Assembly: GCA_964016885.1 (NCBI GenBank)
Contig: OZ024742.1
Span: 56,358,001-56,422,000, forward strand
Direction: 5' to 3'
Source: Eledone cirrhosa
Lineage: Eukaryota
DNA length: 64,000 nt
Shown here piece by piece: positions 26,111 to 26,454 of this stretch (positions are counted from its first letter, which is position 1; the number at the start of each line of letters is the position of its first letter). Both the position numbers and the translations under genes were made by a program. A model generated the notes under the pieces. The model did no database searches and had not been told where the DNA came from. It saw only the letters and a list, made by a program, of their open reading frames with translations.

Positions 26111-26376
26111 ATATTTATATTTATATATATATATATAGTGAGGGAATGGTCGGAAAGTGCTCTACTACGGAGATAGGAGGTAAATAACGAAGGAATTGTG
26201 GTAAGGAACCAGATGGACCATAACGCACCCGAGTATTCAATACTTAGGGTAATAGAGTGGGTAATAGGAAAAAGAATGACCCCGACGGCAGGGCTCAAGC
26301 CGTTTCGACGGCTATTCCTGAGTCCAAATATAGCCGTCGAAACAGCTTGAGCTCTGCCGTCGGGGTCATTCTTTTT

Positions 26377-26454
<78 letters not shown>

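What the first reader, a model, noticed from the sequence alone, without database searches (positions are those of the whole stretch)
26262..26380. Palindrome family folded back at hammerhead stem II (half-hammerheads on both strands)
Seven copies (23210, 23850, 24810, 26262, 27250, 51360, 57648) share GUC-GAAAC-GGC(UUGAGCUCU)GCC-GUC-GGGGUC, which reads as the stem II 3' strand, GAAA, a 5-6-bp stem III, a GUC triplet and a stem I 3' strand. Where CUGANGA should be there is instead an inverted copy of the same half, and the symmetry axis is the variable stem II loop. Inference: reverse transcription primed at (TA)n stalls at the stem II hairpin and the cDNA self-primes, repeatedly producing MITE-like palindromes from an HHR retroelement. 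Such RNAs could also be substrates in trans for intact copies.
Basis: partly seen in the sequence, partly recalled or inferred. Interest (0 to 1): 0.75.

Follow-up and report, generated by a model that had tools for sequence, protein, structure and literature searches.

The report
Penelope run-off palindromes splitting a hammerhead
These small mirror-image repeats are very short back-to-back copies of an active Penelope-type jumping gene, and they likely end where its RNA begins, inside its ribozyme-like fold, so they may record how this poorly understood class is copied.

Summary
The half-hammerhead motif is real: 55,578 exact arms genome-wide, roughly 100,000 insertions by extrapolation. The repeats are not MITEs. 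Each is a head-to-head pair of heavily 5'-truncated copies of an active Hydra-clade Penelope-like element (3,531-bp unit, 717-aa RT plus GIY-YIG) in (TA)n. The parent carries a whole type I hammerhead fold with a U3-A8 core and long stem II. One arm ends at +40 and the other at +119 from GAAAC (16 of 16 unbiased pairs), the known PLE 'inverted copy plus tail'. Simple self-priming is disfavoured: either arm can be longer, and some partner arms come from another family. The axis is not the stem II loop. Arms stop at -3 to -22 (peak -17/-18), none at -23 to -62. The peak is an initiator-like TTAGTY; arms ending there carry an extra G (72 of 100); internal hammerheads are read through (24 of 26). 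Best reading: reverse transcriptase runs off a transcript starting inside stem II. No RNA data were available. This scan had already noted the parent, its U3-A8 hammerhead and the two-ended pattern on other DNA of this genome; the start-site reading was not in the notes I saw.

The parts
26321..26378 (+). Arm A (tail-less). Starts at the A of AGTCC (-18, inferred RNA start), holds the stem II 3' strand, GAAAC (26339), stem III, the GUC cleavage triplet (C at 26361) and the stem I 3' strand, and ends at site A (+40) in (TA)n
   Evidence: parent coordinates
26267..26320 (-). Arm B, shared part. Starts at -14, same half-hammerhead (GAAAC at 26306, GUC C at 26284)
26187..26266 (-). 80-nt tail between sites A (+40) and B (+119); it is the start of the parent's 5' UTR
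26138..26186 (-). Unusual run-on of this copy beyond site B into the parent's 5' UTR (match reaches +159)
26320..26321 (.). Head-to-head junction (arm A 18 nt, arm B 14 nt upstream of GAAAC); the G at 26320 may belong to arm B or be an extra G
26379..26456 (.). (TA)n target tract, right side; a shorter TA tract lies at about 26110-26137 on the left
23205..23278 (.). Collapsed copy, one complete half, tail almost absent
23851..24017 (+). Copy with tailed arm starting at about -8 and a short inverted arm
24718..24853 (-). Single tailed arm; looks like a local inverted duplicate of the 23851 copy (shared flank)
27245..27462 (+). Full two-armed copy with a templated insertion at the junction
51358..51507 (+). 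Old-subfamily copy, degenerate; tailed arm starts downstream of GAAAC
57647..57843 (+). Full two-armed copy (arms 18 and 12 nt upstream of GAAAC)

Best explanation
Each palindrome is a head-to-head pair of extremely 5'-truncated copies of an active Hydra-clade Penelope-like retroelement inserted in (TA)n, likely made when two reverse transcriptases prime on the two ends of one DNA break and likely run off the 5' end of an RNA that starts inside the hammerhead's stem II. Shown from sequence: parent, two fixed outer ends (+40 and +119, one each per insertion), variable junction, stop zone -3 to -22. From the literature: two internal RT start sites defining the tail, extension of both strands, predicted dimer (PMC11167929); internal promoter in the Penelope pLTR (PMC2377424). 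Inferred: (1) transcription starts at an initiator-like TTAGTY (A at -18; minor -22), so the mRNA begins with the 3' half of the hammerhead followed by both priming sites; (2) priming at these 5'-most sites gives about 58-nt and 137-nt cDNAs, often with a cap-templated or run-off C; (3) the two cDNA 3' ends are trimmed and joined by host end-joining (blunt, 1-nt overlap or templated filler); (4) long and multi-unit arms come from templates lacking that 5' end, circular or multimeric RNA. The short copies would be by-products, not an independent element.
For: Parent found unprompted in an unbiased 800-kb sample (L107, L155, L163). Many intact ORF copies and 3,531-bp tandem arrays; 3,972 whole-hammerhead arms. 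A+B pairing in 16 of 16 unbiased and 78 of 87 of all short pairs, none B+B. Youngest subfamily: 81 of 92 arms stop at -3 to -22, 28 of them at -17/-18, 0 at -23 to -62, 11 pass; arms A and B stop at the same parent positions although primed 80 nt apart. Genome-wide 1,861 of 10,859 pass. Passing is shared by both arms: 30 of 62 clusters hold a diverging pair against 9% expected if independent. Internal hammerheads are passed in 29 of 32 rows, 24 of 26 after removing overlapping loci. Arms starting at -18 next to (TA)n have G in 72 and C in 28 of the first 100 of 295 rows (hand count); 57 vs 21 against a background of 1,044 vs 1,125, odds ratio 2.9, p=1.5e-5. The AGT at -18 is at least 90% conserved over 28 whole copies whose distal stems differ. 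In sister family X, short arms begin at or just upstream of (C)AGTT about 135 nt upstream of its own hammerhead (L116 and 3 chimeras). Contigs of public runs show a 10-20-fold depth step across -27 to -4 and TA loose ends at sites A and B, so this is not an assembly artefact.
Against: No RNA 5'-end data. The initiator consensus and cap copying by RT are recalled; two searches for a citation returned nothing. The control at -12 was confounded by arm starts and also showed G excess. The two-arm filler test is confounded by templated fillers. An extra G could be plain terminal addition at any RNA end, such as a nick. Many arms stop at -12 to -14, which needs trimming. Full-length arms rarely end at -18 of the upstream hammerhead (2 of 26), which needs the added assumption of circular or multimeric templates. 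The arms of one insertion are more alike (2.5 mismatches per 40 nt, 44 of 117 identical) than arms of different copies (6.1), which fits one RNA but also snap-back. Family X evidence is 1 unbiased case plus pattern-selected chimeras.
Confidence: 0.63

Rival explanations
1. Same two-ended priming, but the stop is a roadblock: the hammerhead next to the priming sites is folded or protein-bound in the RNP and halts both RTs on the 3' strand of stem II.
For: Stops end exactly at the base of the distal hairpin loop in the young subfamily (-22). The PAc hammerhead is protein-assisted (PMC11167929). An RNP state could explain both arms passing together and internal hammerheads being free.
Against: Does not predict the extra G at -18. 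Old subfamilies have a different distal stem but, by eye, the same stop zone (about 15 arms). Family X stops at a similar motif away from its hammerhead.
Confidence: 0.2
2. The RNA has a 5' end in stem II made by a nuclease cut rather than by transcription start; RT runs off it.
For: Explains the hard boundary, arm correlation and an added base as well as a start site does.
Against: Does not explain an initiator-like motif conserved at the peak in two families; the boundary is not the hammerhead's own cleavage site (+22).
Confidence: 0.08
3. One reading: a single cDNA stalls at stem II, folds back and copies itself.
For: Most junctions have a 3-6-nt offset like a small loop; arms within a copy are similar; it would give one tail per insertion.
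Against: Tail-less arm longer in 11 of 34 short pairs and by kilobases in long ones. Spacers are not the native stem II loop. Mixed-family insertions exist. PAc extends both strands from two start sites. Later inversion between the arms could hide snap-back in some copies.
Confidence: 0.05
4. The short copies keep an internal promoter and both priming sites, and spread on their own as a SINE-like non-autonomous lineage using the PLE protein.
For: Short arms outnumber long about 5 to 1; arm B would hold start site, site A and site B.
Against: Young short copies look identical to the master in the shared part; they lack the sequence 3' of site B, and PAc needs RNA about 55 nt beyond its start sites. 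Lineage-private variants were not tested systematically.
Confidence: 0.12
5. MITE or foldback DNA transposon.
For: Short, palindromic, TA-flanked, high copy number.
Against: Asymmetric ends, variable centre, continuous with an RT-encoding parent.
Confidence: 0.01

Closest known systems
Hydra clade of C-terminal EN+ PLEs, e.g. Hydra-1_Obim (Craig et al. 2021, PMC8557442; passages, section 11 and supplement rows read)
   Same: RWK-type motif (RWR here), DKT, CxCX5C linker, CxxC and CxH, no CCHH, (TA)n target, hammerhead; N-terminus visibly alignable with Hydra-1_Obim
   Different: Different family: 3,531-bp unit with a long 3' UTR; U3-A8 core and 50-55-nt stem II against canonical CUGAAGA and a short stem II in Hydra-1_Obim; the GAAAC 11-mer had 0 hits in that supplement (line breaks could hide one)
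PLE inverted 5'-truncated copy plus one-sided tail (PMC8557442 Fig. 2 legend) and two internal RT start sites of Poseidon_Ac (Frangieh et al. 2024, PMC11167929; parts 1-3 of 4 read)
   Same: Two fixed ends separated by a tail, head-to-head arms, AT-rich target
   Different: Tail is 80 nt, not 30-40. Strict one-A-one-B pairing and a shared, sharp 5' stop inside the ribozyme are not described in the parts read
U3-A8 minimal hammerheads of Schistosoma Cercyon PLEs (Cervera and de la Pena 2014, PMC4209133; parts 1-2 of 4 read)
   Same: U3-A8 covariation, long helix II, palindromic loop 3, opposite-strand pairs from truncated PLEs, proposed circular template
   Different: Here stem III has 5 bp, stem II is much longer, and most copies keep only the 3' half
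Penelope internal promoter (Schostak et al. 2008, PMC2377424; passages and section 15 read)
   Same: Promoter inside the pLTR, start site upstream of tail and ORF, able to drive flanking transcription
   Different: In Penelope the start lies upstream of the hammerhead (combining); here it is inferred to lie inside stem II
Metazoan non-LTR retrozymes (bioRxiv 10.64898/2026.07.22.740005, passages read; PMC7229834 seen in listing only)
   Same: Derived from PLE pLTRs, hammerhead-linked
   Different: These copies have no whole ribozyme and are not tandem non-coding monomers

Membership tests
Hydra-clade PLE (parent) | Single ORF with RT and C-terminal GIY-YIG | tested here: met
   717-aa ORF with YRDD and a C-terminal VIY..YIG by inspection. 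Pfam gives no hit on it; a 46%-identical relative in the window has a weak GIY-YIG hit, E=0.004
Hydra-clade PLE (parent) | RWK-type motif, DKT, CxCX5C linker, CxxC and CxH, no CCHH | tested here: met
   Read from the ORF against section 11 and supplement alignments
Hydra-clade PLE (parent) | Insertion in (TA)n; tandem and inverted structure with tail | tested here: met
Hydra-clade PLE (parent) | Generally shorter than 3 kb | tested here: not met
   Unit is 3,531 bp; the paper says 'generally'
Hydra-clade PLE (parent) | Placement in the RT phylogeny | not tested
   No tree built
Type I hammerhead (parent) | Three helices around the conserved core with a 3-8 pair | tested here: met
   MFE of L107 is the three-way junction (but z=-0.15); 90.2% of cells paired, 42 double changes, position 3-8 is U-A in 15 and C-G in 12 of 28. 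Members were picked with core-containing patterns, which inflates this. Other copies' MFE differs; Rfam gives no hammerhead hit
Type I hammerhead (parent) | Self-cleavage | not testable with these tools
   Needs assay; 1,435 matches have a C3.A8 mismatch
Type I hammerhead (short copies) | 5' half of the core and stem I/II 5' strands | tested here: not met
   Absent from the short copies
MITE | Fixed symmetric TIR ends and fixed interior | tested here: not met
   Ends at +40 and +119, variable centre
MITE | Matching DNA transposase | tested here: not met
   Parent encodes an RT; no transposase search was run
MITE | Target-site duplication | tested here: inconclusive
   Not discernible in (TA)n
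Retrozyme | Non-coding tandem monomers each with a whole hammerhead | tested here: not met
   Tandem units are coding; short copies lack a whole hammerhead

The most novel reading that the evidence does not exclude
The element's promoter starts transcription inside its own hammerhead, so linear capped RNA carries only half a ribozyme plus both priming sites at its 5' end and yields dead-end palindromes, while ribozyme-processed circular RNA yields the long multi-unit arms. The roughly 100,000 short palindromes would then be a genomic map of cap sites and a set of outward-facing divergent promoters in this animal.
Probability: 0.3. Interest if true: 0.75.

Novelty: new variant of a known kind. 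Interest (0 to 1): 0.5.

Why it matters
How PLEs make their inverted and tandem structures, and what their hammerhead is for, are stated open questions (PMC8557442, PMC11167929). This family gives a very large natural data set in which both ends of a break are primed from two fixed RNA sites in strict pairing, and in which template class (short 5' end against endless template) appears to set the product. It gives sharp, cheap tests: a predicted cap site at one nucleotide and a predicted circle junction. It also warns annotators that such TA-flanked palindromes are retroelement debris, not MITEs. If the promoter is internal, many copies may drive flanking transcription.

Tried and rejected
Rfam scan of the window: only microsatellite-driven miRNA hits among the 150 of 260 rows shown; no hammerhead hit on the parent. 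Searches for CTGANGA within 6-38 nt of the half: 67 and 45 heterogeneous hits; the 30 viewed were fillers, chance or chimeras. Pfam and PDB sequence searches with the 717-aa ORF: nothing. RNA runs: no RNA holder listed. One search collapsed identical long arms and undercounted them; it was redone. The old-subfamily filter let in young arms, so it was read by eye only. Cap tests are confounded by templated fillers, and the control by arm starts. The trans-pairing cofold did not form a hammerhead. Sequence look-up of earlier findings returned nothing, nor did a word look-up. Literature searches listed nothing describing run-off palindromes ending inside a PLE hammerhead; only Creative Commons PMC and bioRxiv are searched, Repbase and Dfam were not available, and bioRxiv supplements are closed. 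PMC13282606 passages mention no hammerhead or Hydra. PMC9719517 had no passage on cap copying. Naiad identity rejected because the endonuclease is C-terminal.

Full report
Observation. The motif is present as described at 26262-26380 on both strands, and the seven copies align. The window lies in a 3.0-Gb animal genome; from its repeats I infer a cephalopod-like animal. Exact arms number 55,578 with 0 in the reversed control. Short palindromes with both 11-mers exact number 16,851. A tail motif occurs 27 times in 80 evenly spaced 10-kb stretches, about 100,000 per genome by extrapolation. The real unit is (TA)n, a tail-less arm, a variable junction, a second arm, an 80-nt tail, and (TA)n. Only 3 of the 7 window copies have the half on both strands.

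The parent. In the unbiased sample plus the window (41 clusters), 3 loci carried long copies. L107 is a 5'-truncated element with RT, C-terminal GIY-YIG, a long 3' UTR, a whole hammerhead fold and the tail, preceded by a 180-bp inverted tail-less copy. A protein search scored 142 of 45,933 candidates, many with open frames of 784 codons. Tandem arrays have a 3,531-bp unit and a 717-aa ORF. Its motifs (RWR, DKT, CxCX5C, CxxC, CxH, no CCHH) match the Hydra clade as defined in PMC8557442 section 11. It resembles Hydra-1_Obim but has a different hammerhead. In arrays the tail is simply the start of the next 5' UTR, with ATG at +213. The finding's own copy runs on to +159 in that UTR.

The hammerhead. 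The parent reads ACCCC-UUGAGAA-G, a 50-55-nt stem II, C-GAAAC, a 5-bp stem III with a palindromic loop, GUC, GGGGU, and folds as a three-way junction (not better than shuffles, z=-0.15). There are 3,972 such arms. Older subfamilies have UUGAUAA (most of the 100 listed of 134 matches) or canonical CUGANGA (24 matches), and 1,435 have CUGAGAA with a C3.A8 mismatch. On 28 chosen whole copies 90.2% of cells pair, with double changes in stems I and II and at 3-8 (U-A 15, C-G 12); the selection patterns inflate this. U3-A8 is known from Schistosoma PLEs (PMC4209133). Cleavage is untested.

Outer ends. Arms end at +40 (A) or +119 (B). Short pairs are A+B in 16 of 16 unbiased cases and 78 of 87 overall (6 A+other, 3 A+A, 0 B+B). 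This is the PLE inverted copy with a one-sided tail. Poseidon_Ac starts reverse transcription at two internal RNA sites bounding the tail, extends both strands and is predicted to be a dimer (PMC11167929). Earlier scan notes report twin hairpins just after A and B; two bulged hairpins are visible there in my fold, and I did not test them further.

Snap-back against two-end priming. In 34 young A+B pairs arm A is longer in 11, arm B in 18, and they are equal in 5; junctions show overlap in 17, blunt ends in 10 and filler in 7. In L155 and L223 arm A is longer by kilobases, which a folded-back tailed cDNA cannot give unless the middle was later inverted. Four loci of the 30 viewed join this family's tailed arm head-to-head to a sister family's arm (pattern-selected). 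For snap-back, arms within a copy are closer (2.5 per 40 nt) than between copies (6.1), but one shared RNA predicts the same.

Why arms stop in stem II. Of 92 young arms, 81 stop at -3 to -22 with a peak at -17/-18, none stop at -23 to -62, and 11 pass; A and B arms behave alike. Genome-wide 1,861 of 10,859 pass. Passing arms pair up: 30 of 62 clusters against 9% expected. Internal hammerheads of arrays are passed in 29 of 32 rows, 24 of 26 after removing overlapping loci (loci chosen for an intact ORF, not for this region). So the fold is not a barrier in itself, and the template class seems to decide. The A at -18 lies in TTAGTC and the A at -22 in TCATTT, both like the initiator consensus (recalled). 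The AGT is conserved where the distal stem is not. Arms starting at -18 beside (TA)n have a non-template G in 72 and C in 28 of the first 100 of 295 rows (hand count). The cleanest classes give 57 vs 21 against a background of 1,044 vs 1,125 (p=1.5e-5; the 11 AG and 5 TC rows were tested only in a pooled table, and 6 other rows were left out). The same junction type is 11 times rarer at -12 (26 rows), but that control is confounded for base identity. An extra G is what copying a cap, or adding a base at run-off, would leave (recalled; two searches found no citation). Penelope has an internal pLTR promoter (PMC2377424). Family X short arms begin at or near (C)AGTT far from its hammerhead (few cases). 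Public-run contigs confirm the depth step and both outer ends.

Model and limits. A capped transcript starting at -18 has both priming sites near its 5' end, so two RTs primed on one cut (TA)n run off after about 58 and 137 nt, and the cDNA ends are trimmed and joined. Long arms need templates without that end; circles made by hammerhead cleavage and ligation were proposed in PMC4209133, and read-through multimers fit equally. All RNA-level steps are inferred. A protein-bound roadblock or a nick remain live rivals.

Verdict. A new family of a known clade showing a known insertion architecture, with one feature I did not find described: a sharp, shared 5' stop inside the ribozyme that looks like the RNA start. 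The scan had met the parent and the two-ended pattern before on other DNA of this genome. Interest 0.5.

Noticed in passing
window 60507-63469: Frameshifted Hydra-type PLE of another family, 46% identical to the parent over 190 aa, with a long low-complexity insert; pieces of a related end sequence lie at about 59340-59600 and 24940-25015
   Followed up: partly
L027:1183-1388, L299:893-1094, L102:1590-1774: Sister family of short TA-flanked palindromes that keeps a whole canonical hammerhead (CUGAUGA) in each arm plus a 70-nt tail
   Followed up: partly
L032, L041, L055, L059, L084: Mixed insertions: one arm of this family joined head-to-head to an arm of family X
   Followed up: partly
(e.g. 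L358, L337, L163, L107): Core series across subfamilies: CUGAUGA/CUGAGGA, UUGAUAA, UUGAGAA and CUGAGAA; the mismatched C3.A8 form amplified to 1,435 matches, which suggests cleavage may be dispensable. Order not tested with a tree
   Followed up: partly
L221-L222, L227-L228: Single arms of 4-5 near-identical 3.5-kb units with intact ORFs: very recent activity
   Followed up: partly
all loci: 261 of 1,195 segments between TA tracts have a terminal inverted arm; 129 are this family (oversampled) and the rest fall into many other families with the same anatomy
   Followed up: no
window 23851-24853: Two copies face each other with shared flanks around a TA-rich core: probable local inverted duplication
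   Followed up: no
window 1586-11279 and 37650-40961: Several L1/Tx1-like non-LTR RT fragments, one open frame of 825 aa (family name recalled)
   Followed up: no
window 53807-54172 (-): Fragment resembling a Neptune/Naiad-type GIY-YIG with a C..CxxC linker (by eye)
   Followed up: no
window 26750-26930: tRNA-derived SINE-like repeat (recalled resemblance only)
   Followed up: no
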